Assembly: GCA_043228905.1 (NCBI GenBank)
Contig: JBHGNT010000017.1
Coordinates: 10,602,001 to 10,666,000 of the forward strand
DNA length: 64,000 bases
Source: Azolla caroliniana
Lineage: Eukaryota > Plantae > Polypodiophyta
Reading direction: 5' to 3'
The notes beneath the pieces are model-generated. The model did no database searches. It saw only the letters and a list, made by a program, of their open reading frames with translations, and had not been told where the DNA came from. Position numbers and translations under genes: made by a program. Positions 751 to 32,289 of the stretch are shown piece after piece. How positions within the stretch are numbered: position 1 is the stretch's first letter; each line of letters starts with the position of its first letter.

Positions 751-798
751 GTGGATTCCGAAACCACGCAACGAAGCTGCGAAGAGCCAATCTACCGC

Positions 799-2276
799 TG
801 TCGCGAAAATACGACGAGGATACGTGAACGTTGAGGCAAGACCCCGGGGCCTTTCTCTAGAGGATATCAAATTCGTGTATTTATGTACTAAGAATTAACC
901 GAAATGAGAAAGATTAACAAATTTCATTAATAAAAGGGAAAGAAAGATTACAATCAATCCCAAGATTGGGATTACAAAAGTTTTATCTTATGGAGATGAT
1001 TAGAATAATAGATTAGAGGAAATAAGAGATTATGATTCTTGAGTGATATGGCTTTGACAATGAATTTTGGATTTTTAGAGATTGCTTCCGTATAGAAATT
1101 ATGGTTTACTTGAGAGATAGCTTCCGTAGGGAAGATTAGGGTTCTTGGCTTCGATAAGATAAGAGAGCTCCCAAAGAAAAGAAAAAAAAAAAATTATAAT
1201 ATGGAGAGTCTTCGTGTAGAAAAAAAAATGGAATAAATATGGAGTTGTCTCTTGATCATAGCCTTTTCACTTTTTGTTGCATGGCCTCTACTTTTAGTTG
1301 CCTAGCTTTTTCTTTTGGTTGCATGTGACTGTCCACATGACCTTTACTTTTTCCATGCACTCCCTTCTTTAGTTGCTTGCGTCCACATGGCCTTTACTTT
1401 AGTTCTCTTCACTTTACTTTAGTTTGTTGCATGATCCAATCTTTCGTCCGTCCGCGTCCAACATCGTCCGGTAGCCGGTTCCATTTTACTTGCCGGTCGG
1501 TTCCGGTTCCGATTTTGCTTGCCGTCCAGTTCCGGTTTGCTTGCCGGTTCCGGTTCCATTTTGCTTGCCGGTCGGTTCCGGTTCCAATTTTGCTTGCCGT
1601 CCAATTCCGATTTGCTTGCCGGTTCCGGTTCCGGTTTTGCTTGCCGGCAGGTTCCGGTTTGCTTGCCGGTTCCGGTTCCAGTTTGCTTGCCGGTTCCGGT
1701 TCCGGTTTTGCTTGCCGGCAAGTTCCGGTTTGCTTGCCGGTTCTGGTTCCGGTTTTGCTTACCGGCCGATTTTCGGTTTGCATACCCGTTCCGGTTCCGG
1801 TTTTGCTTACCGGCCGGTTTCCGGTTTTGCTTGCCAGCCGGTTTGCATACCCGTTCCGGTTCCGGTTTTGCATACCGGCCCATTTCCGGATTGCATACCG
1901 GCCCGTTTCCGGATTTGCTTACCGGCCCGTTTCCGAATTTGCTTGTAGGCCGGTTTCCGGTTTTAGGGAATTTGGCCACCATCATCCATCAAGACAAAGT
2001 GGCCAAAGTGCTCTTAGCACAAATGAAAAATGAGGGAGCTCAAGGTGTTTATATAGCCAGGGCCTTAAATTTCCTATCTATGTGGGATAGTTCTAATTTC
2101 TCTATCTAATCAAACTTCATTTTCTCATAACTTGATATGTATTTCTCCATTTTGTATATAGTAAAATACATTTTGAAGCTCTTGAGTATATCCATCTTTC
2201 TATAGTAAGCTACTAATCTAATCTATAATAATTATTTCATTATTTTTTTACATAGTGTGTGAAGATTCACACGACA
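799..2276 (-). repeat. 3' LTR of Gypsy element (1478 bp)
   Basis: Direct repeat of 8029-9059; contains the expanded CCGG-rich array. Confidence 0.93.
1470..1965. repeat. CCGGTT/TTGCTTGCCGG minisatellite inside LTR
   Basis: Many degenerate copies of TTCCGGTTCCGGTTTTGCTTGCCG; only about 110 bp of it in the partner LTR (8640-8750). Confidence 0.9.
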
Positions 2277-2343
2277 TTCGCCCCCACCAAACCTGCACAT
2301 CGACCGGTATGTGCCAATTTTGGTGAGGATTCATTTTTGTTTA

Positions 2344-5300
2344 CTATACTTTTTTATCGATGCTTAAGACTAAATCGTCAAAAGCTTCGAATCCAATTTC
2401 TATTCTATCTCTTCTCTTGAAGATCTTGATTCTTTTACCGGCAATTAGCAAGGCAAGTGGTGTACCATCCAATTCTACTAAATGATATGTTGCATTATCT
2501 TCCACTTTCTTCACCACATATGGCCCAAACCATCGTTGTGAGAATTTTCGAGCCGTACTATGTTGGTTATCTAGGCTACTGTCATAGACTAGCACCCAAT
2601 CTCCTTCAACGATTTTCCTCGGCCGAAGTCGATGTCGTTTATCGAAGTCTTTCTTGTTCTTTAGCCTTGCATTCTTTAGCCGCGCTTTAGCCACCTCTAC
2701 ATCTTCCAAATTCCGCTCTAATTGTCGAATCCTCAATGCTAGAAGATCTTCTCTACTTATCTCATCTTGCCATGGCAATGCAAACCATGAAATAATACTT
2801 TGTTCTACCGGCATTATTGGCTTTTGTCCGAATATGAGCTCTGTCGGCATGTATCCCATCACTGTGCTATGAGTAGTCCTGTCAGCCCATAATGCAAATG
2901 GCAATAGACGTGGCCATTCTCCTATTTTCCCATGGCAAGCTTTCACTAGAGCCTTCACAATCGGTCCATGTCCACGTTCCACCTTCCCATTTGCTTCCGG
3001 ATTATACGCCATGGTAAGAGATAATTTGATTCCCATCCTCGAGAAGAATTCTCTAGCTTCATTGGCGTCCAACTCGCCTCTATCAGCCACTATCTTGCTA
3101 ACCCATCCATATCTGCAAATAACATCTTCAAGAAGGAATCGGCATACCGATGATGTCTCCTTAGTTCTTAATGCTCGCCCTTCAACTTGATTGGTAAGTT
3201 CCTCTCTCGCGAGCACAAGATACTTCATCTGCCATCATCCCATTGGCATCATCACTATGTCAACCATCCACTTGTAATGCATAGCCAACGGGTAAGTCGG
3301 ATGAAGTCCATCTCGATGGCGAATATTCGAAAACATTTGACATTCCTTACATGTTTCCACATAAGCTAATACATCTTTGTAGATGCCCGGCCACCAATAT
3401 TTCTCCTTAAGCTTCGCAAACGTAGCCCATATTCCTCGATGGCCTGCAAAAACGCTATCATGAAATTCGGACATTAGTTTTTGTTGGTCTTCTAGCTTGC
3501 AGACAACTCTCATCGGAGTCCCATTCTTCTTTTTTGCATGCTTCCAAAGAGCTCCATCCTTAAGGAAATACTTGTATGCTTTCTTCCGAATTCGATGGAA
3601 GTCTTCCGTCGACCATGATTCATCTTTTTGGAGAGAACTCAAGTATTTCCCGATCTCCACGAATTCGCCTTCGTAGTCCTCTTCTATGAAAGTAATCAAC
3701 ACCCGAGCATAGGAACTTGCAAAGAAATCCAGGCCAACATCATCTTCATCAGAATGTCGATCTTCTTCTCCGTCGTATTTCGCTCGTGATAGCATGTCTG
3801 CAACGACATTACGCTTCCCAGCTACATGACGGATCTCCGGGTTGAGTGATTTGATATATGCAATCCAACGCAACATGGCAATAATCGGTGTATTACAACC
3901 AGATATCATACCTAAAATTGGTAGGCAATCTGTCTCAATTATGACTTCTGCTTCTGCTCCAATAAGGTAATCACGATCAGATTTGATTGCCGAGACGATC
4001 CCCCATAGCTCCCTCTTCACTTGGGCATACCTTCTTTGCCTGTCACTTAACAGTTTCGCGCCAAACCGAATTGCATATCGGTTGCAATCTTCATCTTCTT
4101 GGTTGATAACCCATCCAATTCCAATTGGACTAGTATCCACAGTCACGAAAATGGGCTTGCCGTATGAATAGTCCGCTTTCCGTAATGCAGGTGCCTCCAT
4201 CAAAAATTTCTTCAGCCTTCGGATGGCGATTGTATGCTCGCTCGTCCATTCGAACATCCGCTTCTTCTTTAGTAGACCATATAATGGCTCAGCAATGTGG
4301 GCGTAGTGTAGAATCCAAATATGATAAAATGTGCATGCTCCAAGGAACCTTCGAACCTCCGTTTGGGTTACACATTCTTCTTTCATGTCTTGAATTGCAT
4401 TCACCTTGGATGGCGAAGGCTTCCGACCGTATGCTCCACACAAGTGACCTACCACCAAGATCTCCGGTTGCCCGAATGCGGATTTTTCTCCCGAAAATGT
4501 CAAATTCGCATCTTCGAGCCTTTGGAGCACCTTCTCGCAATCTTTCATATGATCCATGACGAACTTTCTACATCCATCCTTATCTTTTGATTCATCCTTC
4601 TCTTCATCCGAACATCCTTTTATTGGAATATCATCTAAGAATGGCATCGTGATATCCGGGATGCAATCCTTCAAGACCTTGTTCATGGCATTCACCATAT
4701 GAGCCACCGAGTTCGTTGCGCCTTGAGGTAAGGTACACATCCGCACCAACCCGATTGGAGTTTTCATGGTTGTAATGTCACGACTGTCGACCGCCAACTG
4801 GAATTGATCGTAGCTAGAGTAAAGATCGCCGATGGAGTAGATGGACCGGCCCGCAAACGCCTCGGCAAATTCATCCACACTCGGACCTATTCCAGCATTC
4901 CAAATTGTCACCTTGTTGACGGGTTGAAGATCTTGAATGAATCGCAACGATCCATTCTTCTTTGGCACCGTGAACCACCTATTAGAATAAGGAGCGTTCG
5001 ACGGTTCTAGAATTCCCATCCTCACCTTCTCCTTTAAGAGCTCGATCAGCTTCGGTAAGTGTGCTCTCGGAACCGGTATCGGTTTCAAATTCCAAGGCAC
5101 ATGCGGCACCATGAAGATCACCATTGGTTCTACCGTCCTTGGATTAGCACACCCGATTTCTTGTGGGAAAAACGCGAAAGCCTTCCCATGTCTTTCAAGC
5201 ATTCCACGAAACATCCGCTCCTTTTCAGGGAGGAGGAAATCCTCCCTTCCAACTCGTAGCTTTCCCTTCGTCTCTTCAGTGAAGATGTGACCAATTTATT

Positions 5301-5804
5301 TGGGTTCCTTAAGCTTGGATCTTTTGCAACTTCCTTCATCTTTTGCCAGCTATCTTCCGGTAGCGGAATTGCAACTGGCTTGATCTTCCTATCCACAGTT
5401 TTATATTTTGTGTTGACTTCGACTTCCTCTATCAAGATGCCTCGATGATATTCATGGATGATAGTATACATGTTGACGGAGTTAACCGAAATCACATGTC
5501 GATGGTGAGGATAGCTCAAATCCACGAGTTCCTCTATTTCACCGATGGTGTCATTAAATGAGGCTTCCTCCAGAATATATGACACGAATTCTTCTTCTTC
5601 GATTATGCTTTCTTCTTTCAGCACCTCCTCGAAGTCTTGTATCTGACACTTTTCCTTCTTGTTGAGTAGTCTAAGTTTGCATGCGCTGCCAGGTGTGACG
5701 CATGTTGCTTCTCCTTGCAATCCACGCACTTTGCTTCCTTGTGGGGACTTATGATTGCTCGGACTATTTGTGCCCCATGCTTCAATAGTCCGCTTCAAAA
5801 ATCC
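2344..5804 (-). pseudogene. Gypsy pol (RT-RNase H-integrase), lightly disabled
   Basis: RT LPQGATNS...FLDD; RNase H VDTS...KRELWG...ETDCLP...VADMLSR; integrase H-H-C-C (H..GHRG..CKEC) and ADRGE..NGKVER. One frameshift near 5295 and an in-frame TGA at 3235-3237. Confidence 0.92.
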
Positions 5805-8011
5805 GAGGATTCGCCTCCAAGGCTATCTCGGTTCCTTTCATGATTAGCTCGAACCGTCAGGAATTGAACGGATCTTTTACTATCAAGACTCTTGACGCGC
5901 GCGAAGGCTGCTCCATTATCGAACACCTTGGTCTCCATCCGGGACGATGTTATATATGGTTGTCCTAGGATGACGGAATGTGAAGCCGAGTCTTGCACGA
6001 AGAAGTGTTGATCAATCTCTACATCCCCGATCGTGACTTTAACGTTGGGGCAAGCTCCATACAAGTCCTCTGTAGCCTTCGTCGCCGCTCGAATCTTCCA
6101 TCCGTGGTTTGTATTAATCGGCCATCTTCCTTTCTTATAGAACTCGGTCGACATGAGGTTGATCTCAGAGCCATGGTCAATCAAAGTGACCATGGTCTCT
6201 TTCTTCTCCCCGATCTTCATCGGTGTCTCCGTTGTCGCTCTTGCCCAATGAGGCCGCGAGTAATGGCTATCCACCACCACTTCTTCTTCCTCCTCCTCTT
6301 CCGATCTTGCCATGGTTATGGCACTTTTTTTGACCTCCTCTTCATCAGATTGTTGTCGCTTCCTCTTAATAAGGTCCACGATAGTATCATGGAACTCCTT
6401 CTTCGCGATCCCAAGTAGCTCTCTCAAGGTAAGGTCGACATGACTATCTAAAACCTTCTCCTCAAGGACCTTCCGCAAGTTAGTTGTTTGTTCTATGTCC
6501 GACCTTAGCTTGTAAGTCGGCGCTGCTCGTTCTTTTCCTTTCTTCGTTGATTCTTCGACTTCCATCCGAGCAGGTTGGCTCGATCCACCGGGATTCATGT
6601 TTGTTTCACCAATCTCTTTTCTTGGGATAGGTTGGGGTGGCCCTTCTTTCCCTCCGTTCCTCGTGTTAGGTCGCTTTGATGTACCATCTTCTTCACCGGT
6701 TCTCTTCCTCTTCTCTTCGACAAGGGCTTCATAGGTGTCACACACAACCTCCACAAAGCTTGTGTTTTCGTCGATTGGATCTGACCATCCGGTTGCTCGT
6801 CGCACGTTTCGGTCAGCAAGTTTTAGATCCTCCGAATTGATTTTGCCTTTTTCTTCGCACTCGAAGACCGTTGGCCAAAACCCAACTCCTGGCTTTATCA
6901 TTTTAAGATTCTCTTTTCCAACTCGTATCCCAGCCGAAGCGGCATAGTGCATAGCCTCCACATGCCTTGCATCTTCTTCTTCTACAATCTTTTTCAGCCC
7001 ACCTCTTCCGAAGTTCACTCGTAGTGGCTTCCGGGTCTCGCTCGAGTGAATCATGTTGCCGTCCAAATAGACAACATTCTTCCGGATCGCATCTTGCAAG
7101 TCAGCACATTCCCTTCGTGAGTGTTCAAAGCTATCGCACCACACACATCTATACGCTTCTTTTCCCTTGGGCCCGCGTCGACCTAAGTTGGCTAGCGATA
7201 CCGCTTCAAACTTCTTGGAGAGCTCTTCGATTATAGACTCCTCCATTGCTTTCTTGTCGAAATTGTTGATTGGCTTACTAGGCTCAATCGTCGTAGGTGC
7301 CTTCTTCCACAATTGTGGATTCTCGACCTCAGCTTCCTCTTGCCATTGTCGCCGCTTATCAAAACGGCTGCAAGCCTTCTTCACCGCCGCCCAGTCTGCT
7401 ACCAAACCATTTGGTTGTGTTTCGTCCTCCATGAAACTACCCAATTCTCGCCGATCTTTCGCATCCATTGCCTTTAGGAATAGTAAGACTTTATCTCCGT
7501 CGAGAACTCGTTGCTCGACACTCGGAAGTTGGTTGTACTTCTGGTCGAATTCGGCATAAATTCCCGATGCACACAGATTCTTCCCTTTCTTCTCGATCCA
7601 ATTCATTAATGTATGCCGAGTCATCCGCGATGCGTCTTCAAGCATGTATTCAGTGAGAAGAGCCCTTTCGAACTCCGCCCAAGTTGCATGCTCGTTTTGG
7701 ATCTCCATCACGCGCTCACGGATCCCGGGTTCTACCACACGCTTAAAGCTTGAAATTTGTTTTGGATCATGGACATCTCTTTGTTGCATCTCATTCCGGT
7801 AGGTAGCAAGGAAATTTGTGATGTTCTTCCCACCGAATCTTCCAACTGTCTCCACAGTTCGGTCAACAGCTTTGTCGACTAAAGCCTCCTGATCTCTCTC
7901 TTTCAGCATGAATTCGACGACGGACACCATGCCTTTCGTCAATTCTTCTCCTTGAGTTCCACTTGTCGAAGCCATCTTCGTACTTGATATCCTCCTACTG
8001 CCTCGTTTCAT
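5795..8011 (-). CDS. Gypsy Gag-protease ORF
   Basis: Open ORF with zinc knuckle CVWCDSFEHSRREC and aspartic protease LIDHGSEINLM...VILGQPY. Start is either the ATG in the PBS (8011) or MASTSG at about 7975. Confidence 0.88.
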   Translation of the reverse strand: MKRGSRRISSTKMASTSGTQGEELTKGMVSVVEFMLKERDQEALVDKAVDRTVETVGRFGGKNITNFLATYRNEMQQRDVHDPKQISSFKRVVEPGIRERVMEIQNEHATWAEFERALLTEYMLEDASRMTRHTLMNWIEKKGKNLCASGIYAEFDQKYNQLPSVEQRVLDGDKVLLFLKAMDAKDRRELGSFMEDETQPNGLVADWAAVKKACSRFDKRRQWQEEAEVENPQLWKKAPTTIEPSKPINNFDKKAMEESIIEELSKKFEAVSLANLGRRGPKGKEAYRCVWCDSFEHSRRECADLQDAIRKNVVYLDGNMIHSSETRKPLRVNFGRGGLKKIVEEEDARHVEAMHYAASAGIRVGKENLKMIKPGVGFWPTVFECEEKGKINSEDLKLADRNVRRATGWSDPIDENTSFVEVVCDTYEALVEEKRKRTGEEDGTSKRPNTRNGGKEGPPQPIPRKEIGETNMNPGGSSQPARMEVEESTKKGKERAAPTYKLRSDIEQTTNLRKVLEEKVLDSHVDLTLRELLGIAKKEFHDTIVDLIKRKRQQSDEEEVKKSAITMARSEEEEEEEVVVDSHYSRPHWARATTETPMKIGEKKETMVTLIDHGSEINLMSTEFYKKGRWPINTNHGWKIRAATKATEDLYGACPNVKVTIGDVEIDQHFFVQDSASHSVILGQPYITSSRMETKVFDNGAAFARVKSLDSKRSVQFLTVRANHERNRDSLGGESSDF

Positions 8012-8024
8012 GTCGGGTTCACCA
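8008..8024 (-). promoter_or_regulatory. Primer binding site complementary to tRNA-Trp
   Basis: TGGTGAACCCGACATGA, 4 nt from the LTR end. Plant tRNA-Trp(CCA) 3' end recalled as ...TTCACGTCGGGTTCACCA (1 mismatch). Confidence 0.8.
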
Positions 8025-8028
8025 AAGA

Positions 8029-9059
8029 TGTCGCGAAAATACGACGAGGATACGTGAACGTTGAGGCGGGACCCCGGGGTCTCCGACCAGAGGATAATCA
8101 CATTTGTGCGTTTATATTTTTAACAATTAATAGAAAGAAGAAATTTAATAATTTTCATTAACAAAGGAAAAAGAAATTACAATATGTCCCAAGATTGGGA
8201 TTTAGAAGTTTTAGGTTTACTAAGATTAATAGAAAAGAAAAATTAGGGGTTTTGAGAGATATGGCTTCCGTAGGGAAGATTAGGGTTTTTGAATGTTATG
8301 GCTTCCGTAGGGAATTTTAGGGTTTATGAGAGTTATGGCTTCCCTAAGATAAGAGAGTTGAGAAGGACAAGAAAATTAAGATAATATGGAAAGTGAGTCC
8401 TAGTGTAGGAAAAAAAATGGAATAAATATGGAGTTCTCCCTTGATCATAGCCTTTCCACTTTTTGTTGCATGGCCTCTACTTTTAGTTGCCTAGCTTTTT
8501 CTTTTGGTTGCATGTGACTGTCCACATGACCTTTACTTTTTCCATGCACTCCAACTTTAGTTGCTTGCGTCCACATGGCCTTTACTTTAGTTTGTTGCAT
8601 GATCCAATCTTTCGTCCGTCCGCGTCCAACCTCGTCCAGTAGCCGGTTCCATTTTGCTTGTCGGCCGGATTCGGTTCCATTTTGCTTGTCGGCCGGATTT
8701 GCTTACCGGCCCGTTTCCGGATTTGCTTACAGGCCCGTTTCCGGTTTTAGGGAATTTGGCCACCATCATCCATCAAGACAAAGTGGCCAAAGTGCTCTTA
8801 GCACAAATGAAAAATGAGGGAGCTCAAGGTGTTTATATAGCCAGGGCCTTAAATTTCCTATCTATGTGGGATAGTTCTAATTTCTCTATCTAATCAAACT
8901 TCATTTTCTTATAACTTGATATGTATTTCTCCATTTTGTATATAGTAAAATACATTTTGAAGCTCTTGAGTATATCCATCTTTCTATAGTAAGCTACTAA
9001 TCTAATCTATAATAATTATTTCATTATTTTTTTACATAGTGTGTGAAGATTCACAGACA
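8029..9059 (-). repeat. 5' LTR of Gypsy element (1031 bp)
   Basis: Direct repeat of 799-2276; adjacent to the PBS. Confidence 0.93.
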
Positions 9060-9250
9060 CCGCTCAAAGCCGCGAAGAAAGACGCAAGCCGAAGCACAGA
9101 CCCCGCAACTACGCACAACGCAAGCTGGAGCATGGATTCCGCAACTCCGCATAAAACAAGTCAACGCGAGTCAACGCGGACACCGGAACGCGAGTCGAAG
9201 TGGATTTCGGATACCGTCTGAAACCAACCCGACTTGAGCTTGAGGGGGCG

Positions 9251-9637
9251 TGTTGAGAATCAAGCTCAACTTGGTCTAGTGTGTGAACTCACCTTGAGAG
9301 TGAATAGACACTCCAACGGTCAAGAGTCACCATGAAGTCACCACTTTGTATTCTAGCATTTAGTATGAGTCATAGAATCATATTCTATGACACATAACTT
9401 ATGAGCTTTCACATTCCCCATGCTCCATGAGTCTTGTAGTTAATGAAGAGAGAGGGTGACTACATAAAGCACCCTCCTCCCACCTTGTATAATGTTGAGT
9501 CTTTCTCCTTTGTCAATATACTTTTACCTTGCGTATTCTCTGTGTTTCACTCACTCACTCTCTCTCTCTCTCTCTTACACACATACATAACTCACATCTC
9601 TTCCGCTTCACAAGAATCCATCTCTTGATTCTTTACA
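9251..9637 (+). repeat. Copia 3' LTR
   Basis: TG directly after the PPT, CA end. Start TGTTGAGnnnCAAGCTCAAC is shared with LTR ends at 45766(-) and 56128(-). Confidence 0.8.
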
Positions 9638-9930
9638 CTATCGTTTATCCTTATCCTTTGCTTACATTAGTACATATCTCTAATAGTTGGTATCCGAGCT
9701 CATGTTCTAATGTTTCTTTTGTTGTCTTTGGTGTTCTTGATTGATGGTGATCGATCGATGTGCAGTCTGCCTTGATTCAGACAACGATCAACAAAGAACT
9801 TCGGTAACTCTTTCCTGTTTTTTTTCTATTTTTTCTTCTCCCATCTAATCATGTATCTGTTCTATATGTAATTTTTTCCATTAATTCAATGATGTTGTAG
9901 TGGTAATTAATTGGTTGTATAAAACGTTTA

Positions 9931-10200
9931 CATCTGTGTATGAGGTCAATACCTCATTTGACATATGTTGAATATGTGATTAATGTCGTATGCACACGAG
10001 GTTAATACCTCAATTGCGTATTACGCTCACATACATATGTTACGTATGCGTATGAGGTCAATATCTCGATTTTGTTGTAAATGATATACGTTTGGTCTCG
10101 TATGTGTAAGAGGTCAATACCTCAATTGCGTATCACGATGAACCCTTATTTTTGGATGTTTTGTGTGTGTAGAGGGTATATGCCTCGATTACGTATCTCG
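9931..10200 (+). repeat. 56-nt-period array of palindromic GAGGTYAATACCTC units in chromovirus 5' leader
   Basis: Core at 9942, 9998, 10054 and 10110, with a degenerate fifth at 10172. Confidence 0.8.
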
Positions 10201-11356: not shown

Positions 11357-14300
11357 ATGGCTCAAAATAACAACCCGATGTCATCCGCTCAAGCGGAAGG
11401 AACTCAAGGAAATCCTCCTAGACAAATGTCCATTGAGATGTATTTTTCACAACTAACCCAATACCTTAGTTTCACCACTCAACAGATGACCGAACTTCGG
11501 CAATCTCAAAGTGCTCTCAAGGCATGTGTCATTAGTTCACAACGTGAGACTAATAGACCTGATGAGCGACAGGGTGAACCATCGTTTGTCGTTAAGCCAT
11601 TTACGGGAGAAAAAAAGGAAAGAACCGAAGAAGCAATCTGCACGTGGCTGGGTCGATGGGAGTCTCATTTTGAGCTCTATCCCACACCAGATAGTACGAA
11701 GATTGCATATGTCAGCCGAGAACTAGAGGGTAAGGCCGCCGTTTGATGGCATGGGCTCCGAACATTGGGGAAATTGCCCGATACCTAGACAGATTTTGTC
11801 ACACTTTTTAAGGGCCAATTTCTGCAACCTCCCTCTCGAACTGAGGCAGCACAAGCTTTAATGAACCTCTCTAGCACGAAGTTTTCCTCGCTAGAAGACT
11901 ATGTTCACCATGCTAGAACCCAAATCCAAAAATCGGGTCTAGAAGGGGACAACTAGTTAATAGTTTATTTTGTCAATGGCATCCAATCACTGGATAGTGC
12001 ACGATAAGGATCCAAAATCCTTCGAAGAGGCCAGTGAAATAGTTCTTCGCTATCAATGCACTTCGAAGGACCACAACAAACCGAACGAAGCGCCCGGGAC
12101 TAAGCAGTCGCAATTCGCTGGGAAACGCCAAACACCCAACGAATTCATGGATCGTGATTGTAAGCGACAACATCCTTTTTGTGTATTCTGCAAAAAGAAG
12201 GGTCATACAAAAGAGCAATGTTGAAAGCTCCAACGAAAAGAGCACGACAACAAAGCTAAAGCTACAGACCATAAAGGTCAGATTCCTAATGTCCTTCATG
12301 TCTATACACATCATTTAAGTAATTGTCAATGTTCTTTCCCTCACTATGTATTGGGTCCCAATGATTTACTACGTGCAAACGGGTATATCAAGGGATCTCC
12401 CATACAATTTTTGTTTGATTCGAGAAGCTCACACAACTTTGTGAATGATCGTTTGGTTCAGATATGGGGAATCCAACCCACCGTAAGTGATCACACCTAT
12501 ACGGTGCACTTGGCTGATGGAAGAGTACAATACATCAACAGGGCGATTCATTCATTAGGAATTTCTATTGATACTTATATAGAGGAAGTAGACTTCCATG
12601 TAATGAATCTTTGTACCACTCATGTAATATTGGGTTATCCCTGGTTCTATAATAAAAACTCTTCTTTATCTATTGATTGGGTTCATCATTCAATAACTTT
12701 TGTATTGAACGATTGTACTCATTTTATTAAATGCGTAAAAAAACAATCCCTCTCGATTGTTTCCTCTCCATCAATATCTGAGTTGTTTTGTTTTACTCTA
12801 TTTTATTGTGTACTTGATCCGGACATTCACGTTTACAATATTGATAATGTCTCGGTTCAATTAACATATTTTGAACAACAACAACTTGATGAAATCTTAA
12901 ATGATTTTCATGATATTTTTCAGAGTGAACTACCAGATGGGTTACCTCCTAAATGTAATATAGATCATCATATAGATATTGTACCTTGCGTTGCACCAAT
13001 AAGTATACCTCCTTATTGCTTAAGTCGATCCAAAGAGGATGAGGTATCTAAGCAACTCAAGGACTATTTATGAATGCGTTATATATGTTATAGTGAATCT
13101 CCATGGGGTGCACCAGTTCTCTTGGTTAAAAAGAAAGAGCGCACATGGCGTATGTGTATTAATTACCGACGCTTGAATAAAGTGACGATCAAGAATTCGT
13201 ATCCATTGCCCCGAGTTGATGATCTAATTGACCCTCTCCAAGGAGCTCGGTATTTTACGAAACTTGATCTCCGTACTAGCTACCATCAAATTCGTATAAG
13301 TGAGGACGATGTTCCTAAAACGACATTTCGTACACGATTTCGTGAAGATTTTCAGCAATGGTGTGAAAATTGCATAAAACATACGAAATCGAGTATGAAT
13401 CACATAAAACAATAATAGTGAAGATACTAATTTGAAATAAGTTTAATATGTTGGTACAAAAAGATGGGGGTCTTCAAGAGCTTTCGAATGCACTTTACTA
13501 CATAAGAAACAAACATCTAAGTCTCAAGTTATGTGGGTACGAAGTTTGCAAAAAAAAAGAGAAAAATAAAACTGTGAGATATCCCACAAAAACAGGATAA
13601 ATAATGATCTCACCATATATAAGGTAGAGCAAAAGCTATTATCTTTGTGTCTATGTGTGGAGCATAGAGAGTTCAAGGTGACTTGAACTAAGCTAATTGG
13701 ATGAGTGGGTGTGGCCTAGCTACTTGTAAAGGTCTTGGCCAACCAAAACCGGCAGCAACCGGTGGGGGAACCGGCGACAACAACTAGCAGCGGAGCCGGT
13801 GAACCAGCGGCGGTGACAGACGATATCCGGCGACCGGTGACCGGCATCCGGTGAGGTTTTGGCCAACCAAAACCGGCGGCAACTAGTGGCGAAACCGGTG
13901 ACCAGCATCCGGCAACAGATCCGGTGACGGACAGTGACCAGCATGTGACAACCTCGGGATGCGAACCGAACCGGGCCAAACCAAACAGATGCAAATCAGT
14001 CAGGTCGGTTGATCACGGTGTTTAAAAGATATTTGGTCCAAAAGTCTAATAGTATTTTGTGCTTTAAAAAAGATGTAAGCAAGACTCGAACTTTGCACCT
14101 CCAAGATAGGAAGCAATAGGCTTACCATTAAGCCAAATCATTTCATTAGGGAATATATTTTTATCATTATAGATTTACATGTAAATTCTCATATTAGGGC
14201 TTGATTGAGTGACATATGATGCATGAGCGCGAAATGGCAAACTTGCATCACATGCATTTCATGCATTGTATGCATGTCTTGTACCCTCACATGCATCATA

Positions 14301-16992
14301 TGCATGGGAGCATCTATAAAAGGGTGGATGAAAAAGATAAAAAGGAGCTTTGTACTTTATATCAAAATTAATATTAAGAAGAAAATTCGTTATCCAATTG
14401 ATGTATTAATCTTGTTCGTCAAATCTAAAGTCAAGAGTATCAATCTTAATCTCTCACAATCTAAAGTCAAGCGTTCTCTCTCTCTCTCAATCTATCTTAA
14501 ATCCTTTCTCGCTAAAGCTAGTGCAACTTCGAGTCCTTCCGGTCCAGAACCCTGGCGGTTCCGCCTCACGATCCGTGCGTAGTGACGGATCTTCACGACA
14601 ACGTTGTGGCCATTATGAGTTTTGGGGTATGCCTTTTGGTTTGACCAATTCTCCGACTACATTTCAACAAGAAATGAATGACACTTTTCGAGAACAACTT
14701 GGAAAAATTGACGTTATTTTCTTGGATGATATTGTAGTTTATAGCCGTACATTACAAGAACATGCTAAACATGTCCACTTTGTTTTACAAACATTGCGTA
14801 ACAAACAGTTTTATGCGAAGATCTCAAAATGTGAGTTTTTCAAGAAATCAATTACTTATCTTGGACATCTCATAACCGAACGAGGAGTTGAAATTGATCC
14901 TTCTCGCATCTCATTCCTTGGTTTTGTCGGGTTTTTGTAAAAATCCCTTCGTAATTACTCCCAATTGACGACACCATTTACTAATTTTCTAAAAGGTCAA
15001 ACGCGTAAGTCTACAAAACCTATTGTCTGGAATGCTACACAAGACCTCGCCTTTAAGGAACTCAAGGACCTGGTGTGCAAGGCTCCTTCACTTCTTTTAC
15101 CTGATCCTTCAAAACCTTTTGAGGTTGAAACCGATGCAAGCGATTATGCTATAGGTGTTGTCTTATATCAAGATGGTAAACCAATAGCATTCGAGAGTAA
15201 GAAACTTGATTCTGCTCAATGTCGGTATACCGTTCAAGAAAAGGAGTTATTTGCAGTTATACATGCGCTCAAAACATTGCGCCATGAAATTTATCGAAAT
15301 CGCTTTGTGGTAACTACGGACCACGAGTCCTTGAAATATTTTTGTGACCAACAACACTTGAAAGTTCGTAAGGCACGATGGGTTGATCTCATCCAGGACT
15401 TCGATTTTTCCATACGATATCATAAAGGTTCCATGAACACTGTCGTTGATGCACTAAGTCGCATCCGTGAAGTTAACATGCTTAGCTTCACTAAAATAAC
15501 ATCAGATCTTTATTATCACCTTTGAGGAAAGTATCCTAATGACAGTTATTTTGCAAAATATTGGGCAAGAGTTGAGTCTAGAACAGACACCACTACATCG
15601 TCGAAGGAATACTTCCACATTGCTAATGGTCTACTCTACCATAATGGGAAGGTTTGTGTTCCAGATTTGCCTGAGGTCAAAAAGAGAATTCTCTTTTAAT
15701 GCCATGATGCACCCTCAATAGGGCACCCTGGATTACATCGTACACTCGTTCTAATCTCCACTCAATTCTATTGGCCTAGGATGCGCCTTGACATACATAG
15801 CTATGTGACTAAATGTCACCAATGTTAGGTTAACAAAGTCGAGCGACTTAAAGCCGCAGGAATTTTACATCCCTTGGACATTCCCAATAATAAGTGGGAA
15901 AGTATATCCATGGATTTTATTGTTAGCCTTCCTCGCACCCAAAAAGGCCATGATGCCATCTGGGTTGTGGTTGACAGACTAACTAAAATGGCCTGATTTA
16001 TTGCTACTAAAACCACAGTAACAGCTCCAGAATTGGCTTACCAATTCGTTGACGAGTTATTTCGTTTTTATGGGTTACCGATGGATATCGTGAGTGATCA
16101 AGATCCAAAGTTTACTGGTGACTTTTGGACGCAAGTCTTTAAGAAGTTAGAAACTACATTGACCATGAGCTCCACGGATCATCCTCAATCCGATGGACAA
16201 ACAGAACGAGTAAATCAAATTATTGAGGACATGCTTCGAGCATACATTGGTGCAAAACCAACAAAATGGGAACGTTATCTCCCAATTTTGGAGTTTGCTT
16301 ATAATAGCTCTAAGCATACGTCGATGGGATATAGTCCTTTTATGTTGATGTATGGTTTTCAGCCACGAGCCCTGATTGATGTTAATATACATCATGATGA
16401 GTTGCGAAGTACGCAAAACTTTTTTCAGGATATGCAAGATATGTTGCATATTGCACGAGATAATATAAAAATAGCTCAAGATAGAGCGCGTTTTTATGCC
16501 GATCATCATAGGCAACCTCGTGTATTCAACCTTGGACAAAAGGTATTTTTACGTGTACCTCACAATTCTAAGACATTGTCTAAGGGTAAGTGCGCTAAGT
16601 TAGCCCCACAGTTTTCTGGACCTTTTACAGTCCTCAAATGCATTGGGTCATTAGCCTATCGTCTCGCTCTTCCCGATGGTGTTGAAATTCATCTAGTTTT
16701 TCATGTGAGTTATCTAAAAGAACTTCTAGGTTCTGGTGACAATACAGTTACAACTGAAACTCTGGTTACTTCTGAAGAATTATCTTCTAAACCACATGTA
16801 CCAGAAAGAATTCTCGATGTTGAAAAAAAAAAATTATGTACTAAAGAAATCCAAGAATTTAAAATAAAATGGATGGATAAATTAATAAAAGATGCCACAT
16901 GGGAACGCAAAAATACTCTGAGAACAAACTTCCCTAACTTTCCATTGCAAGAGTTCAATGTTTTAAAGAGGGGGAGTATGTTACAGGCATGA
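11357..16992 (+). pseudogene. Chromovirus gag-pol, fragmented
   Basis: ORF fragments 11267, 11970, 12351, 13074, 14521, 14965 and 16033 in gag-PR-RT-RH-INT-chromo order, with stops and frameshifts. Confidence 0.9.
13338..14600 (+). mobile_element. Gypsy solo LTR inserted in chromovirus RT
   Basis: T(T)TCGTGAAG...TTCACGACA termini; TSD ACGA/ACGT. Removing it plus one 4-bp copy restores RT motif FRTR-(C/Y)GHYEF. Homologous to 21301-22952. Confidence 0.88.
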
Positions 16993-19410: not shown

Positions 19411-19539
19411 GTTTTATATAGGGTTTAGGAGGGAGGGGTAAGATGGATGGTGGGGAAGGTTCAAATTAGGGAGTGGGGGATGAGGGTGTGCTATGTGCAC
19501 ATGTGCACTTAAGAAAGGAAAGGGTAGTGGGTTTATGTT

Positions 19540-21201: not shown

Positions 21202-21300
21202 TAATGGAAGATTAAAACAGAAGTGGAGGTTCATGCACTTACACCGAAGAGACAACACAGGATGTTTACATGGAAAACCCTAATAGGAAAAACACCACGG

Positions 21301-22952
21301 TGTCGTGAAGATTTTCGGCAACGGTGTGAAAATTGCATGGAATGTACAAAATCAAGTGTGGTTCTTCACACACAATATGAAACAATAATAGTGAAGATAC
21401 TATTTTATATTAGTTTAATATCTTGTTACGAAAAGATGGATATCTTCAAGAGCTTCTGAATGCACTTTACTACATTTGAAATAGACAACTAAATGTCAAG
21501 TTATGTGAGTGTAAAGTTTGAGAAGAAGAAGAGAAAAACAAAACTATGACATATCCCACATAGATAGGACAAATCAGGATCCCACAGTATATAAGCAGAG
21601 CTAGAACTCATTACTTTTTGTCTTTGTGTGGAGCATAGAATGTTCAAGGTGACTTGTGCTAAACTATTCCGTTGGATTGATGTGGCTTAACTACTCATAA
21701 TGGTTTTGGGGAACCGCGACCGGACAGACGGCGACGGAACCGGATTCGGATCGGGCCGGGTGCATCCGAACGGCGACGGAACCGAATCGGATGCACATTG
21801 AACCGGTCGAGCCCGGACAGACGGATCGGTCTGGTCAGGTCGGTCAGATAGGTTGATCGCAACGCACGGTCGGTGTCTTGAAGATTTCGGTGTGAAACGA
21901 ACAAAAAAAAAAATTGTCTATAAATTCCATCGGCTCATTGGAGATCGATTGAAGGTGTAATATGTAGTTAAACATTTAACAATCGGCAACGGTTCGGTTC
22001 GGTTTGAGAGGGTCCAAACCGAACCGTTTTAAAATTTTGAAACCTGAACCAAACTGAGAAACCGTTAAACCGAATCGTTAAATTTTTTTCAAACCATTAA
22101 ATCGTAAAAACCGCGGTTTCGTGGTTCGGTTTCGGTTTTGAACATAGGTCTAATTTTTAATTTTTTAAAATTTATAATATTTCATGATTTAAAATTTTTA
22201 AAATTTTTAAGATGTTCCTAAAATGTGAGAATAAGGTCTAAAAATGAAAATATTGTTTAAAAACAATTTTTACATTTTTTTAGAATTTTTTTTTAAAAAA
22301 AAAAACCGTTTAGCCATTTAAACCCCGGCTTTTGATTGTTGAAACCGAACCGAACCGTTGAAACCGTTAACATTTGTAAACTACAAGACTAAAGCCTAGT
22401 AATATTTTGTGCATTGAAAGGGATGCAAGCAAGGCTTGAACCTTGCACCTCCAAAACAGGAGGCAATAAACTTACCACTAAGCCAAATCGTTTCTTTAAG
22501 TTATATTTTTATCATTACAATTCTCATACATGAGAGCTTGAATGAGTGACATGGTTATCATGCAATACATGCAATGCATGAGCGCCAAATGGCAAACATG
22601 CATCACATGCATGTCTTGCACCCTCACATGCATCATATGCATGGGGGCATCTATAAAAGAGTGGATGAAAAAGAAAAACGGAGCTAGGTATTAATCAAGA
22701 AATTAATAAAAAAATAGAAAATTCATTATCCAATTGGTGATGTATTAATCTTGTTTCTCAAATCTAAAGTCAAGGGTTCAATCTTAATCTCTCTCTCTCT
22801 CTCCATCTCAATCTTTCTCTCGCCATATCAATCTCTCTCAATCTATCTTAAATACTTTCTCACTGAAGCTAGTACAAACTTCAAATCCTTCCAGTCCAGG
22901 ACCCCCGCGGTTCCGCCTCACGATCCGCACATAGTGATGGATTTTCACGACA
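21301..22952 (+). mobile_element. Gypsy solo LTR containing a MITE
   Basis: TGTCGTGAAG...TTCACGACA termini; TSD ACGG/ACAG; homologous to 13338-14600. Confidence 0.9.
21977..22369. mobile_element. MITE / non-autonomous DNA transposon
   Basis: Imperfect TIR TAAC...CAACGGTTCGGTTCGGTTT; flanking direct repeat ACATT; AACCG subterminal repeats; absent from the homologous LTR at 13338. Confidence 0.8.
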
Positions 22953-23379
22953 ACAGAAGCGCACAGACTCCAACTATCACTATGAGGGGACGAATACAAT
23001 CTGAGACTCAAAGGCAACGAGCTTGAGCTCTATGTCTTCGCCAACAAGCAGTTACAAACAGAAACTAGTTTTGTATCTCTCCCTCTCTCTCTCTCACGCT
23101 CTGTGTACAACGATGATACAACAACAACTCTCACTAATGTGATTTCCCTAAGTCATATTTATACTTATATGACATTTGGGCTATTTACAAATATAGCCTC
23201 GATGGGCTCACTCTGAAACATATTTACACATATGTCCTTGGATCTGGTTTGCACCAGATCCATCTGGATTCACTCGATCCGGTTTCCAGGTCTCATCTAG
23301 AAACCTTCCGAATATGGTTCCTTCATCCGGCTCATCCAGATCCCATCTAGAGGGACTGAATTCCCAACAAACTCCCCCT

Positions 23380-26300: not shown

Positions 26301-26990
26301 CTTTGACCTTGTCCCCGACTTTTCCCGATTCTGGGGACTCCGATACCGGTTTCTCCCCCGGTTATGGTCATCTTCCGTGACCAAGGCCTTCGGATCGGTT
26401 CCGGACTCCCGGTTCTTCCGGCGAGCTTCTTCATCTAGCAAGCTTGATTTTACCTTTGTTAGGGACAACTTCTTTCCTTCCGGCCCGGTGTTGCCCAAAG
26501 TGACAACTAGCGTCTCCCAACTATCCGGGAGGGAGCCCAACAAGAGCAATGCAAGTACCTCGTCGGCTAGAGGTACTTTCAGCGAAGTTGTTTGGTTTAT
26601 GAGCCCCTGAAATGCGTTCATATGCTCCGCCATGCTGGATCCGTCCTGGTACCAGAGTCTCACTAGCTTCCAGAATACCGAAACCCGATTTTCGACGTTT
26701 TTACTCTCCAACATGGTGCCGATTTTCTCCTAGAGCACATGAGCCTTACTTTCTTCATTGAAGTTGTTGTACAGGCTCATGTCGATGAAGCACCGGATGT
26801 ACGTCGTTGTCTTCATGTGCATCACCTCCCATGTCACGACATCGATCTTGTCCGGTTTCTTGTCCCCAAACTGTACCGGCAGCCAAAGATCTTTGACCAC
26901 GAGCATGTTCCTCATCTTCGACTTCCACACTAGGTAGTTGGAGCAGTGAGCTTGAACATGCCGCTGAATGGTTCTTCCATTTCCTTTGTT
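23380..26990 (-). pseudogene. Copia gag-pol, fragmented, protease region deleted
   Basis: ORF fragments with WHKRLCHMS, FIDDHSRK, AMQDEMDSL, DVKATFLHG and STTEAEY motifs. Confidence 0.9.
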
Positions 26991-27074
26991 CGTTCTGATA
27001 CCAATTTGAGAGGAATAGAGCTCGGCCACAACCGAGACTCAAGCACTTAATGGAAGATTAAAACAGAAGTGGAG

Positions 27075-27345
27075 TACCCAGTGAGAATCAGAAGGAGGAA
27101 CCGGTAAGGACTGGACCCGATAAGGAGAACCGATAAGAACCAGATCAAGCAGAACCGGCAAGAGCCGGACGAAAAGGACCGGTAAGGAGGACTCGGTAAG
27201 AACCGGATAAAGAAAACCGGTGAGAACTGGATGAAGCAGACCCGGTGAGAACCGGATAAAGAAAACCGGTGAGAACCGGATGAAGCAAACCTGGCAAGAG
27301 CCGGATGAAGAAGGCCGGTGAGAGTTTCTCACTGGATGAAGAGAC
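27075..27345 (+). repeat. AGAACCGG-rich minisatellite in LTR (partner copy 30172-30445)
   Basis: Repeated AAGAACCGG(T/A) units in both LTRs. Confidence 0.85.
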
Positions 27346-28009
27346 AAATTTGTAAATAAAAGAAAAGATTGTTACATGCATAGGGCAGGATTCAAACCCT
27401 ATACCTCCATGTTAATAATGTAAAGCCTTACCATTACACTAACATATCATTAGTGTTAAAAAAGTAAACGTCCCACATAGAAAGGTAAATTCACGCTAGG
27501 ATAAACTTTAGTTAGAAGAAAACGCATGATAAAAGAAAAAGCTGCGCATGCACATGTAGCGTGCATGAACACCATAATCGATAAAAAGACATCAAATTAG
27601 AAAAAGTAGGATGACTTTAGAAAAAGCATAGAGTCTATCTATAGAAAAAGCATGGATTGTTAAGACTCTCTCATCACTATATAAGGATGGGGAGCTCAAT
27701 GTAATAGGGGTGGGATGTGTGGAATATTTGGAAATTAGATATATTTCCTAAAACACCAATTAATATAATATATTCGTGGGATTCACGAATTTGTGATCAA
27801 AATTATCTCTTACTATTTAAATATTGATTAAATACATTAAACTCGTGGGATTCACGAGATTCATAACTTACCTATCTTTCTACCTATTCATTACTAGCCT
27901 TATCTCAGATTCTTCCTCCTCCTAGTCCAAAACCTCAGTGGTTCCCACCCGACTCACGCAACGATCCGGAGCCGAAAGGCATGACACAAAGTGGTGAACC
28001 CGACGTGAA

Positions 28010-29395
28010 ATGGGTGGCAAGGAGATGGAGAATCAACAAGAGGCGATGAACACGATGATGATGATTATTGAGCGGATGCAACAAGAACAACGCGCGATGT
28101 CGGAGATGAAGGCAACAGTAGAGTGGGTTGTGCGACGAAATGGGGATTTCAATGGAAAGGATGTGTCACGTTACCTATGTGACTATAAGGCGGAGATGAT
28201 GCAATGTCGAATACCGAAAGGATTGCAAGTGATATCCTTTAGTCGGGTGGCCTCAGACGAGCTGCAAGAGAGCATATACGAGATACGACAACAAAACACA
28301 ACGTGGGTGTCCTTTGAGAAAGCACTATTGGAGAAGTATGACTACGAGAGATCGATGGGACGAGATCGACGCGAGTTTGACTAGTGGGTGGCATCGACAA
28401 AGACTCATTGAACTGCGACACTAGCATTCTTAGAGTTTGAGTAGTTTTGCTCAACTCTCGGAGTGGGAACAAAGATCGGTGGGGGTGGATAAAGTCCTAA
28501 TGTTCGTAAGATCAATCAATCGAAAAGAAAGGATGGACATTGGGATCGAACTCAAGACGATGACAGTGCGAATGGTCTTACCGAGGATTGGGCTGAAGTC
28601 GAAAGAGTATGCCGAAGACATGATAAGAGGAAGATGAGAATATCATTGGCAACAACATGGCCTATAAGGGATGATCGATTAAGGATAAACGATGTGACTG
28701 ATACGAAGGCTGAAGTACGAGTCGATGGTACCACGGGAGAGGGTGTGGAACAAGGCATCCTCTCATCTTGCGAAAGAACGATGGCCAAGGATAAGGTCGA
28801 TGACTTGAGAGTGGCGAACACCACTTCAAGAACGGAAGAAGGTTTCAGAATACAAGTATCCGAAACATCAGGTGAAAAATGGGTAAGCATAATCGATTCT
28901 TGCATGATCGAGGGAGATAAAGAGTGCGAGGACGACATGATTGAGGAGATAGCCACGAAAAACGACATCGAGTCAGAGGTGTCTATGGACGAGCCAATGG
29001 CGGATGACCGTATCGAAACTTTCTCACCACTGATTCCAAAGACTCTAGCGGTTGCGTTCGAAAGGCAACGTGAGACCGAAGAGACGGAAGGTGGTGGAGA
29101 GAAAACGAAGGTCGAAGCCGATGCATACAACGGAGAGATAACCGAGAAGGTGGCTATAAGTGAAACGATGGAGGACGATAATACTGAGGATTCCTGCCCA
29201 TTAATTCTAGAGACTTCGGCGGTTGTGTCCGAGTACCAACGTGAGACCGGAGAGACAGGAGGTGGCGGCAAGAAAGGTAAAGTCAGAAGTTGGTTCGGAT
29301 GGAAGATGATCCAGACAAAATTCCGATCTAAACAAAAACCGACCCGAAAGGGGGCCGACTCGGTCAAAACCGATCAACCGAGTCCACGAATCTGA
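28010..29395 (+). pseudogene. Gag-like capsid region plus acidic low-complexity extension
   Basis: FNGKDVSRYL..Y..EM...SFSRV....WVSFEKALL and VDKVLMFVRSI..KER align with FGGKNITNFL..Y..EM...SFKRV...WAEFERALL and GDKVLLFLKAM..KDR of ORF 5795-8101. Contains stops and frameshifts. Confidence 0.78.
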
Positions 29396-32286
29396 TCGGA
29401 AGCCGATCCAACCGAAAGTTGATCGGACAAGACCGAATCAGAAAGAAGCTAATACGACTCAACCGAAAGCCGATCGGACAAGACCGATCCGGAAAAAAGT
29501 CAAGGTTGCTGAAGACAAGAAAGAGGCCAAGAAAAGACACTACCACGGGCAACAAGGACCAAGCGGGCCAAGTGGATTTGACGAGTGTTACCAAGGATGA
29601 GATCTTAGCAAATACGGTGAGCTCTATCATGAAGATTATCAACTCTAACACGAGATTATACAACAAAGATGAACAAAGTGGGAAGCATGGCACATGCACA
29701 AGACAAGAAGGGTTATGCTCAAGAGGATCACAAGGAGCCATGACAACCGGCCATGGCAATGTAAAGATAGAACAAAGAATATGGTGGATCGGGGATGGCG
29801 ACAATGGTTCGGGTGGAAAGAATGGACGTGCTCAAAATGGAGAGACAAAGTCGGCATAGCAAGAGAAACGGAGGGGATTGCGAGTAAAGGAGAAATACAA
29901 GAGCCGACAACTGATAACTAGGCGGAGCAAGCAATTGAAAATCGAAAATCGGACAGAGCTGTCAACCGAACAAAACCGGAAACCGGGCGGAGCCGGCAAC
30001 CAAGCACGACCAGCGACGAAACCAACCGAGCGGAGACTCGACGGACAAGACTAACAATCACCGACAACTTCAGCACATACCGAAGGACATGCGGGTTTGG
30101 AGGGGGCAAGTGTCGTAGTGTAATTCGCACACTACGTGAAAAATTATTTTTTGGTCTTTCCAGATAGGACATGGAGTACCCGGTGAGAACCGGAAGGAGG
30201 AACCGGTAAAGACCGGACCCAATAAGGAGAACCGGTAAGAACCAAATCAAGTAGAACCAGCAAGAGCCGGACGAAGAGGACCGGTAAGGAGGATCCGGTA
30301 AGAACCGGATAAAGAAAACCAGTGAGAACCGGATGAAGCAGACCCGGTGAGAATCGGATAAAGAAAACCGGTGAGAACCGGATGAAGCAGACCCGGCAAG
30401 AGCCGGATAAAGAAGGCCGATGAGAGTCTCTCAACGGATGAAGAGACAAATTTAGAAATAAAAAAAAAGATTGTTACATGAATAGGGCAAGATTCAAACC
30501 TTGTACCTCCATGTTAATAATGTAAAGCCTTACCATTACACTAACATATCATTAATGTTAAAAAAGTAAACGTCCCACATAGAAATGTAAGTTCACGCTA
30601 GGATTAACTTTAGTTAGAAGAAAACGCATGAGAAAAGAAAAAGCTACGCATGCACATGTAGCGTGCATGAACACCATAATCGATAAAAACGCATTAAATT
30701 AGAAAAAGTAGGATGACTTTAGAAAAAGCATAGAGTCTATCTATAGAAAAAGCATGGATTGTTAAGACTCTCTCATCACTATATAAGGATGGGGAGCTCA
30801 ATGTAATAGGGGTGGGATGTGTGGAATATTTGGAAATTAGATATATTTCCTAAAACACCAATTAATATAATATATTCGTGGGATTCACGAATTTGTGATC
30901 AAAATTGTCTCTTACTATCTAAATATTGATTAAATACATTAAACTCATGGGATTCACGAGATTCATAACTTACCTATCTTTCTACCTATTCATTACTAGC
31001 CTTATCTCAGATTCTTCCTCCTCCTAGTCCAAAACCTCAGTGATTCCCACCCGACTCACGCAACGATCTAGAGCCGAAAGGGATGACAACGGGAGCCCAC
31101 AGACTCCAACTATCACTATGAGGGGAGGAATACAATGTGAAACTCAGAGGCAACGACCTTGATCTTTATGTCTTCGCCAATCGACGGTTACAAATAGAAA
31201 CTAGTTCTGTATCGCTCTCTCTCTCTCTCACGCTCTGTGTACAACGATGATACAACAACAACTCTCACTAATGTGATTGCCCTAAGTCATATTTATACTT
31301 ATATGACATTTGGGCTATTTACATATATAGCTTGGATGGGCTCACTCAGTAAAACATATTTACACATATGTCCTTGGATCCAGTTTGCACCGGATCCATC
31401 CGGATTCACTCGATCCAGTTTCCGAGTCTCATCCGGAACCCTTCCGGATCCAGTTCCTTCATCCGGTTCGTCTGGTTCTCATCCGGAGGAACCGAATTCC
31501 CAACAAGTTCGAAGTCTCCACCATAAAAAAATCCTTAAAGACAATAAAAGAATACACACTCTTATTCTGAAATCCACATGACAACATTAGCTTAGTGCTA
31601 CTGCCCCTTTATGGAAAACCACCATATTCAACAAGGGCACACATAATCAAATGGACCATTTGGTTGCCCATATCCTTTAACTTGCAAAACATCATCTTCT
31701 CATGTTAATGGACTCATCAATAGGCACTAAACAAGGTTATCATTCGTCAATGTATAAATACAAAGATAGGGAATGAGTAAAAAATTAATTTGGATATAGG
31801 AATGAGAATCTAACTTGGCAAAACTTGATTATCTCATGAATGAACAAATCAGTTATGACAACAAATCTATGTAGCAAGAATTCCAACTTTTGAAGCATAT
31901 ATATATTAATGAGTAATACTCGTGCACTATTTATGGTTGTGAACCATCGTTCTCCCGCACCATCTTTTGCACTATTTATTTTGTGTCAATATACATGTGT
32001 GGGAATGCCTTTCAAAAGTCCTATGTGAGATCCATGTGAAGAAGATACTTAATGTTAGTGTTGCTTACGGTTAGTCCAAAATAATCAGGTTTGATATGCT
32101 TCAATCTTATTTTAAACATTATTAAACACAAGAGAGCCCTACTGGGGGGCTCGGGGAAACAAGAGAACAAAAACATAAACACAAAGAGAGAGAGAGAGAA
32201 ACAAAAAGAACAAAGTTACCCAGAAAAAAAAGAAAAAAAAAGTGAGAAACAAAAACAGTTCACCCGAAACACAGAACCGCACACAC

Positions 32287-32289
<3 letters not shown>

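What the first reader, a model, noticed from the sequence alone, without database searches (positions are those of the whole stretch)
795..31092. Gypsy clade with 4-bp target-site duplications, all centred on CpG
Seen: target sites of the TGTC...GACA elements are CCGC/CCGC (799-9059), ACGA/ACGT (13338-14600), ACGG/ACAG (21301-22952) and ACGG (31089, one side only). The 4-bp length is confirmed by frame restoration of the interrupted RT. Copia elements in this window show 5-bp TSDs, the usual plant LTR pattern. All four sites are N-CG-N, and all lie inside other TEs. Inference: an integrase with no recognisable chromodomain that prefers (possibly methylated) CpG as a route into heterochromatin.
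Basis: partly seen in the sequence, partly recalled or inferred. Interest (0 to 1): 0.78.

Follow-up and report, generated by a model that had tools for sequence, protein, structure and literature searches.

The report
Phygy retrotransposons insert only at CG
These plant jumping genes duplicate four bases centred on a CG pair when they insert; they most likely belong to the Phygy group, for which this habit was published in 2019, and whether they sense DNA methylation is still untested.

Summary
The four sites belong to a non-chromovirus Ty3/Gypsy clade with a tRNA-Trp primer site, an 8.3-kb full-length size, no chromodomain and a 4-bp NCGN duplication. That is the published profile of Phygy (Neumann 2019: 186 elements, 4 bp in 100%, NCGN). 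No tree against Phygy references could be built. Of about 4,173 non-internal LTR ends, 3,073 carry CG and 732 carry CA/TG. Only 32 carry TA, against about 44 expected from double decay, so the rule is CG-specific rather than a general flexible-step preference. Insertions lie in repeats more often than random CpGs do (38 of 47 against 745 of 1,500). Selection could produce this as well as targeting, so the methyl-CpG idea is neither shown nor excluded. The likely mechanism is direct CG readout by the intasome. Corrections: one 5' end reads TTTC, two sites are solo LTRs, and two of the four sites are the same base in the two LTRs of one copia. The scan noted NCGN duplications before, in another, probably fungal, genome (unchecked note).

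The parts
799..9059 (-). E1: full-length Phygy-type Ty3/Gypsy element, 8,261 bp; pol broken by a frameshift and one in-frame stop
8029..9059 (-). E1 5' LTR (1,031 bp)
   Evidence: self-BLAST
799..2276 (-). E1 3' LTR (1,478 bp, longer through an expanded internal tandem repeat)
8007..8024 (-). E1 primer-binding site complementary to host tRNA-Trp, 4 nt after the LTR
   Evidence: 5 of 5 genomic loci with the complementary sequence are tRNA-Trp(CCA)
2277..2293 (-). E1 G-rich plus-strand priming tract (PPT-like, with T's)
   Evidence: the same tract precedes 23 of 70 LTR starts
5795..8119 (-). E1 gag-protease ORF with DUF4100
2344..5295 (-). E1 RT-RNaseH-integrase frame; integrase ends in an SH3-like GPY/F module and a short acidic tail, no chromodomain
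795..798 (+). E1 left duplication CCGC
   Evidence: empty site in L075
9060..9063 (+). E1 right duplication CCGC
13338..14600 (+). S2: solo LTR (5' end mutated to TTTC) inside the RT of a chromodomain-bearing Gypsy; duplication ACGA (13334-13337) / ACGT (14601-14604)
21301..22952 (+). S3: solo LTR of the same subfamily as S2, inside one LTR of a copia; duplication ACGG (21297-21300) / ACAG (22953-22956)
27070..31088 (+). E4: non-autonomous element of another subfamily (5' LTR 27070-27986 missing its first 60 bp, tRNA-Trp site 27992-28008, gag remnant about 28037-28633, 3' LTR 30111-31088), in the other LTR of the same copia; right duplication ACGG 31089-31092
49766..55070 (+). Control: young copia with identical LTRs and a 5-bp duplication TGTTT

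Best explanation
These are chromodomain-less Ty3/Gypsy elements, most likely of the Phygy clade, that leave a 4-bp duplication centred on CG, and their integrase likely reads that CG directly in the bent target DNA. Shown: 4-bp N-CG-N duplications across at least two LTR subfamilies, a tRNA-Trp primer site, no chromodomain, and later decay of the CG to TG/CA. Inferred: as in the foamy-virus intasome, a 4-bp stagger bends the target at its central pyrimidine-purine step, and clade-specific residues narrow this to CG. Predicted candidates are the invariant Glu of the shortened DRGEL loop (aligned to foamy-virus Ala188) and the conserved LxxQHSTxRKF loop of the C-terminal domain. Because repeats here are about twice as CpG-dense as other DNA, CG readout by itself steers insertions into repeats; the further excess is likely due mainly to loss of genic insertions.
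For: Neumann 2019 supplement: Phygy n=186, 4 bp 100% NCGN, 7,656-9,968 bp, tRNA-Trp 81%, no extra domain; E1 matches each. CG 39, CA 6, TG 2 of 47; E1 subfamily CG 11, CA 3, TG 1 of 15. TA 32 observed against about 44 expected from two independent decays, although TA is 2.3 times commoner than CG in random regions. L089 carries ACAT on one side and ATGT on the other, i.e. independent decay of one ACGT. T is avoided at the joining position (2 of 47), as in retroviral intasomes (PMC4422553, passages). The integrase model's best structural matches are foamy-virus and Ty3 integrases; E54 and L55 are invariant in 65 of 65 rows and the loop is one residue shorter than in both. Strict CG cores are known for other Gypsy-type integrases: Ginger1 CCGG/ACGG, Drosophila CGCG.
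Against: No direct phylogenetic anchor: the Phygy reference FASTA could not be read and no homologue was named from Physcomitrium. The residue assignments rest on alignment and a model of mean pLDDT 73 without DNA. Nesting in repeats exceeds the CpG-only expectation (81% against 50%; bootstrap difference 15-49 points), which sequence readout alone does not explain. One paired site is CCAT on both sides (L087), so occasional non-CG insertion is possible.
Confidence: 0.72

Rival explanations
1. The intasome prefers methylated CpG, which gives a chromodomain-free route into silenced repeats.
For: 38 of 47 insertion flanks are repeats against 745 of 1,500 random CpG flanks. 764 of 3,837 YR ends show decay. 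An empty target CpG in a copia LTR has decayed in 10 of 30 copies. A review states that C methylation created strong target preferences for retroviral integration in vitro (PMC11054761, passage; the primary paper was not held). Phygy domains were reported enriched in predicted centromeres of a liverwort (PMC12885004, passages).
Against: Decay may all post-date insertion. Within repeats, insertion flanks have the same CpG observed/expected ratio as random CpG flanks (0.95 against 0.92). No methyl-binding domain was found in Pfam scans or the fold search. Selection against genic insertions predicts the same nesting.
Confidence: 0.25
2. A host chromatin factor tethers the integration complex to repeat-rich chromatin, and CG is only the local cut rule.
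For: Excess nesting beyond CpG density; dense local clustering of these elements in fetched loci; abutting elements that share one duplication (24 matches) against roughly 1-3 expected (rough).
Against: The C-terminal tail after the SH3-like module is short, acidic and not conserved; no tether motif was identified. This rival adds to, and does not replace, CG readout.
Confidence: 0.2
3. The preference is only for a flexible pyrimidine-purine step, as in retroviruses with 4-bp duplications, or the window's pattern is chance.
For: All observed centres are YR; YR enrichment is general for 4-bp integrases.
Against: CG makes up 80% of YR ends but is the rarest YR step in the genome (2.9% against about 7% each for CA, TG, TA); TA is 0.8%.
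Confidence: 0.02

Closest known systems
Phygy clade, non-chromovirus Ty3/Gypsy (Neumann et al. 2019, PMC6317226; passages, section 9 and supplementary file 5 read)
   Same: 4-bp NCGN duplication, tRNA-Trp primer site, 8.3 kb within the 7.7-10.0 kb range, no chromodomain or archaeal RNase H, coding region fills most of the interior.
   Different: Described there as specific to Physcomitrella patens; this 523-Mb genome has about 41% GC in 40 sampled regions, and named relatives come from a liverwort and a fern. The paper gives no mechanism and no methylation test in the parts read.
Phygy nesting in Tcn1 (Jedlicka et al. 2019, PMC6911290; sections 7-8 and passages read)
   Same: Phygy has mostly 4-bp duplications with a GC-rich centre and often sits inside Tcn1 chromoviruses, as S2 sits in a chromodomain Gypsy here.
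   Different: They found similar but never identical positions (at least 50 bp apart); here two elements share the same homologous base, and duplications are sometimes re-used.
Ginger1 DNA transposons (Bao et al. 2010, PMC2836005; passages read)
   Same: Gypsy-type integrase with GPY/F motif; 4-bp duplications CCGG (75%) or CCGT/ACGG (24%).
   Different: DNA transposons of animals with terminal inverted repeats and no RT; narrower outer bases.
Prototype foamy virus intasome (Serrao et al. 2015, PMC4422553; passages read)
   Same: 4-bp stagger, central YR step, T avoided at the joining site; best sequence and fold match to the integrase.
   Different: Only a weak YR bias, not a near-absolute CG rule; its loop after the catalytic Asp is one residue longer.
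Drosophila errantivirus-group elements (review PMC5408687; passages read)
   Same: Sequence-specific palindromic targets, among them CGCG.
   Different: Insect lineage; all four bases specified.

Membership tests
Phygy (REXdb) | 4-bp target-site duplication with NCGN motif | tested here: met
Phygy (REXdb) | Primer-binding site for tRNA-Trp | tested here: met
   E1 and E4 sites complement host tRNA-Trp(CCA), 5 of 5 loci
Phygy (REXdb) | Length 7,656-9,968 bp, interior nearly all coding, no extra ORF | tested here: met
   E1 is 8,261 bp; gag-pol spans 2344-8119
Phygy (REXdb) | No chromodomain and no archaeal RNase H | tested here: met
   0 of 14 proteins with Chromo at E<=1; tails short and acidic; one RNase H region
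Phygy (REXdb) | RT-RH-INT phylogeny groups with REXdb Phygy references | not testable with these tools
   Reference FASTA too large to read; no Physcomitrium-named homologue returned
Chromoviruses (Tcn1, Galadriel and others) | Chromodomain at the integrase C-terminus | tested here: not met
   only 22% identity to the window's chromodomain Gypsy Pol
Selgy | 4-bp duplication, tRNA-Ala primer, 4.4-6.7 kb | tested here: not met
   Primer is Trp and size is 8.3 kb
Tat I | 4-bp duplication, tRNA-Trp primer, archaeal RNase H in 100% | tested here: not met
   No second RNase H domain at the curated cut-off in E1 or 13 homologues; NCGN is not reported for Tat I
Methyl-CpG-guided integration | Integration favoured by 5-methylcytosine at the target | not testable with these tools
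   Only indirect signs; no methylome or assay

The most novel reading that the evidence does not exclude
The Phygy integrase is a natural methyl-CpG reader built into the intasome: it finds silenced DNA through the target base itself, without a chromodomain or tether, and so even re-uses the methylated duplications left by earlier copies.
Probability: 0.25. Interest if true: 0.75.

Novelty: new member of a known kind. Interest (0 to 1): 0.27.

Why it matters
The rule itself is known, so the finding mainly extends Phygy to another non-seed plant genome and puts numbers on it: about 91% of non-internal ends are CG or its one-step decay product. What remains open is how a retroviral-type integrase reaches near-absolute two-base specificity, and whether methylation matters. 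The thousands of natural sites and two candidate residue groups make both questions directly testable. A methyl-sensing intasome would be a new route to heterochromatin targeting.

Tried and rejected
Chance in a small sample: rejected by genome-wide counts. General YR preference: rejected by TA scarcity. 5-bp duplication: rejected by RT codon offset, empty site and paired ends. A genome-wide hotspot at the copia LTR site: rejected, only 2 of 408 copies are filled and both are in this window. A hidden chromodomain or methyl-binding domain: none in Pfam, tails or fold search. An apparent 5-bp AGTTC duplication of the second copia: dropped, because its left LTR is truncated. Anchoring to Physcomitrium sequences through homologue names: nothing named; the atlas gave Streptophyta and Basidiomycota clusters only. 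Estimating element density from 40 random regions was too noisy (excess 3 sites), so the expectation for duplication re-use comes from 60 element-rich loci and is rough. Paper searches for a test of methylation dependence in Phygy found none; of 18 papers naming Phygy passages of 4 were read.
Full report
Setting. The window lies in a 523-Mb eukaryote genome and is a stack of nested LTR retrotransposons. Named relatives of the main element come from a liverwort and a fern, which points to a non-seed land plant (inference).

Observation. All four sites are as described. E1 (799-9059, minus strand, 8,261 bp) is full-length with CCGC on both sides. S2 (13338-14600) and S3 (21301-22952) are solo LTRs of one subfamily, 77% alike; S2's 5' end reads TTTC. 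E4 (27070-31088) is a non-autonomous element of another subfamily whose 5' junction was removed by a deletion. The 4-bp length holds: the host RT Arg codon recurs at an offset of 1263+4, and an empty homologous site holds one CCGC. Of 17 paired ends in other loci, 11 are identical 4-mers and 6 differ by transitions. One copia control has a 5-bp TGTTT duplication; a second could not be read.

Genome-wide test. I fetched 60 of 83 planned stretches around the first 100 of 2,693 matches to the S3 5' end, not selected on flank. They hold 70 distinct ends: 23 follow the internal G-rich tract and 47 face the host. Of the 47, 39 have CG at the centre, 6 CA, 2 TG, none another step; flanks have 5.7% CG. 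For the E1 subfamily, 18 of 30 loci were examined (12 further copies of one tandem array were left out): 3 are internal and the other 15 give CG 11, CA 3, TG 1. A 12-letter end motif occurs 5,849 times, 1,676 of them at internal junctions. Of the remaining about 4,173, 3,073 are CG, 732 CA or TG and 32 TA. Two independent decays predict about 44 TA. CG is the rarest YR step in 40 random regions (2.9%). The target is therefore CG, later eroded by methylation-type decay; L089, with ACAT left and ATGT right, shows this directly.

What it is. E1 has a DUF4100 gag-protease and an RT-RNaseH-integrase frame. Its primer site complements host tRNA-Trp (5 of 5 loci). No chromodomain was found in 14 of 14 proteins, whereas the host Gypsy of S2 has one. 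Elements carrying the S2/S3-type LTR encode close relatives of E1 gag and pol (up to about 62% over gag and 60-90% over pol stretches), so the solo LTRs belong to the same clade. Neumann et al. 2019 state that Phygy alone among plant lineages prefers NCGN (passage). Their supplementary file 5 lists 186 elements, 4 bp in 100%, 7,656-9,968 bp, tRNA-Trp 81%, no extra domain. Every testable feature matches. Their element list and FASTA were too large to read, so the tree test is missing and those files may bear on host range and target statistics. Jedlicka et al. 2019 also report 4-bp duplications and Phygy nested in Tcn1.

How it likely works. Shown: 4-bp stagger, CG centre, T avoided at the joining base (2 of 47). 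Known: foamy-virus intasomes unstack a central YR step and contact target bases through Ala188 and Arg329 (passages). The modelled integrase (mean pLDDT 73) matches foamy-virus and Ty3 integrases best. Its loop after the catalytic Asp is one residue shorter than in both, with an invariant Glu at the Ala188 position (65 of 65 rows; numbering offset inferred). The C-terminal domain has a conserved QHSTxRKF loop just before the GPY/F motif, where I recall Arg329 lies in the foamy-virus protein. Inferred: these features tighten a YR bias into a CG rule. Ginger1 transposases and Drosophila CGCG-targeting elements show that Gypsy-type integrases can do this.

Heterochromatin and methylation. By one repeat test applied equally to all sets, 448 of 1,498 random positions, 745 of 1,500 random CpGs and 38 of 47 insertion flanks lie in repeats (library limited to 40 random regions and 12 window ORFs). 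CG targeting thus explains part of the nesting. The rest (15-49 points, region bootstrap) may be methyl preference, a tether or selection; these tools cannot separate them. For methylation: an empty target CpG has decayed in 10 of 30 copies, and methylation is reported to create retroviral hot spots in vitro (review passage). Against or neutral: within repeats, insertion flanks are no more CpG-depleted than random CpG flanks, and no methyl-binding domain was found. I found no paper that tests this for Phygy; most subscription papers are outside the library.

Two oddities. S3 and E4 occupy the same ACGG in the two LTRs of one copia; these are the only 2 filled copies of 408. One possible route is that a solo LTR was copied to both copia LTRs, E4 re-used its duplication, and the deletion at 27070 removed the earlier copy (speculation). 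Re-use does occur: 24 matches show two elements abutting on one 4-mer. Of 19 distinct junctions among the 20 loci fetched, about 15 look like true LTR ends by eye, against roughly 1-3 expected.

Verdict. Real, strong and already published for Phygy; a new member in another genome. The methyl-reading version remains possible at about one in four.

Noticed in passing
window 21297-22956 and 27070-31092: Two elements of different LTR subfamilies sit at the same homologous ACGG in the two LTRs of one copia; no other of 408 genome copies of that site is filled. Unexplained.
   Followed up: partly
L163-L182 (genome-wide): Elements of this clade abut on a single shared 4-mer in 24 matches, often forming a palindromic junction; suggests re-use of old duplications at several times the rough expectation.
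   Followed up: partly
G000:C2:7902779-7920545 (L210-L222): Tandem array with a 329-bp period that contains the E1-type LTR end: an LTR-derived satellite.
   Followed up: no
window 8025-8028, 27987-27991; loci L032, L042, L060: The primer site is set off from the LTR by a subfamily-specific spacer of 4, 5 or 8 nt (TCTT, CAAAG, TAATTAAG), longer than the usual 0-3 nt (recalled), which implies unusual end processing.
   Followed up: no
window 2277-2293 (minus strand): The plus-strand priming tract is G-rich but holds several T's, so it is an imperfect polypurine tract; it is not the tRNA-Arg copy noted for another Gypsy lineage of this genome.
   Followed up: partly
window 799-1583 versus 8029-8746: E1's two LTRs are 98% alike over 368 bp but only 75% alike over the other about 800 bp, which suggests recombination between subfamilies or conversion.
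   Followed up: no
P0001 (window 5795-8119): The DUF4100 gag's nearest atlas clusters after its own are mostly basidiomycete; a link between Phygy and a fungal Gypsy lineage is a lead only.
   Followed up: no
G000:C8:17796786-17823371 and C16:4989495-5105657: Arrays of a sequence matching the tRNA-Trp 3' arm, spaced about 1.2 kb on C8; only five other loci were confirmed as tRNA-Trp.
   Followed up: no
window 32085-32456: Weak Pfam match to a Ctr copper transporter (E 0.0018, below cut-off), possibly a host gene fragment beside the TE stack.
   Followed up: no
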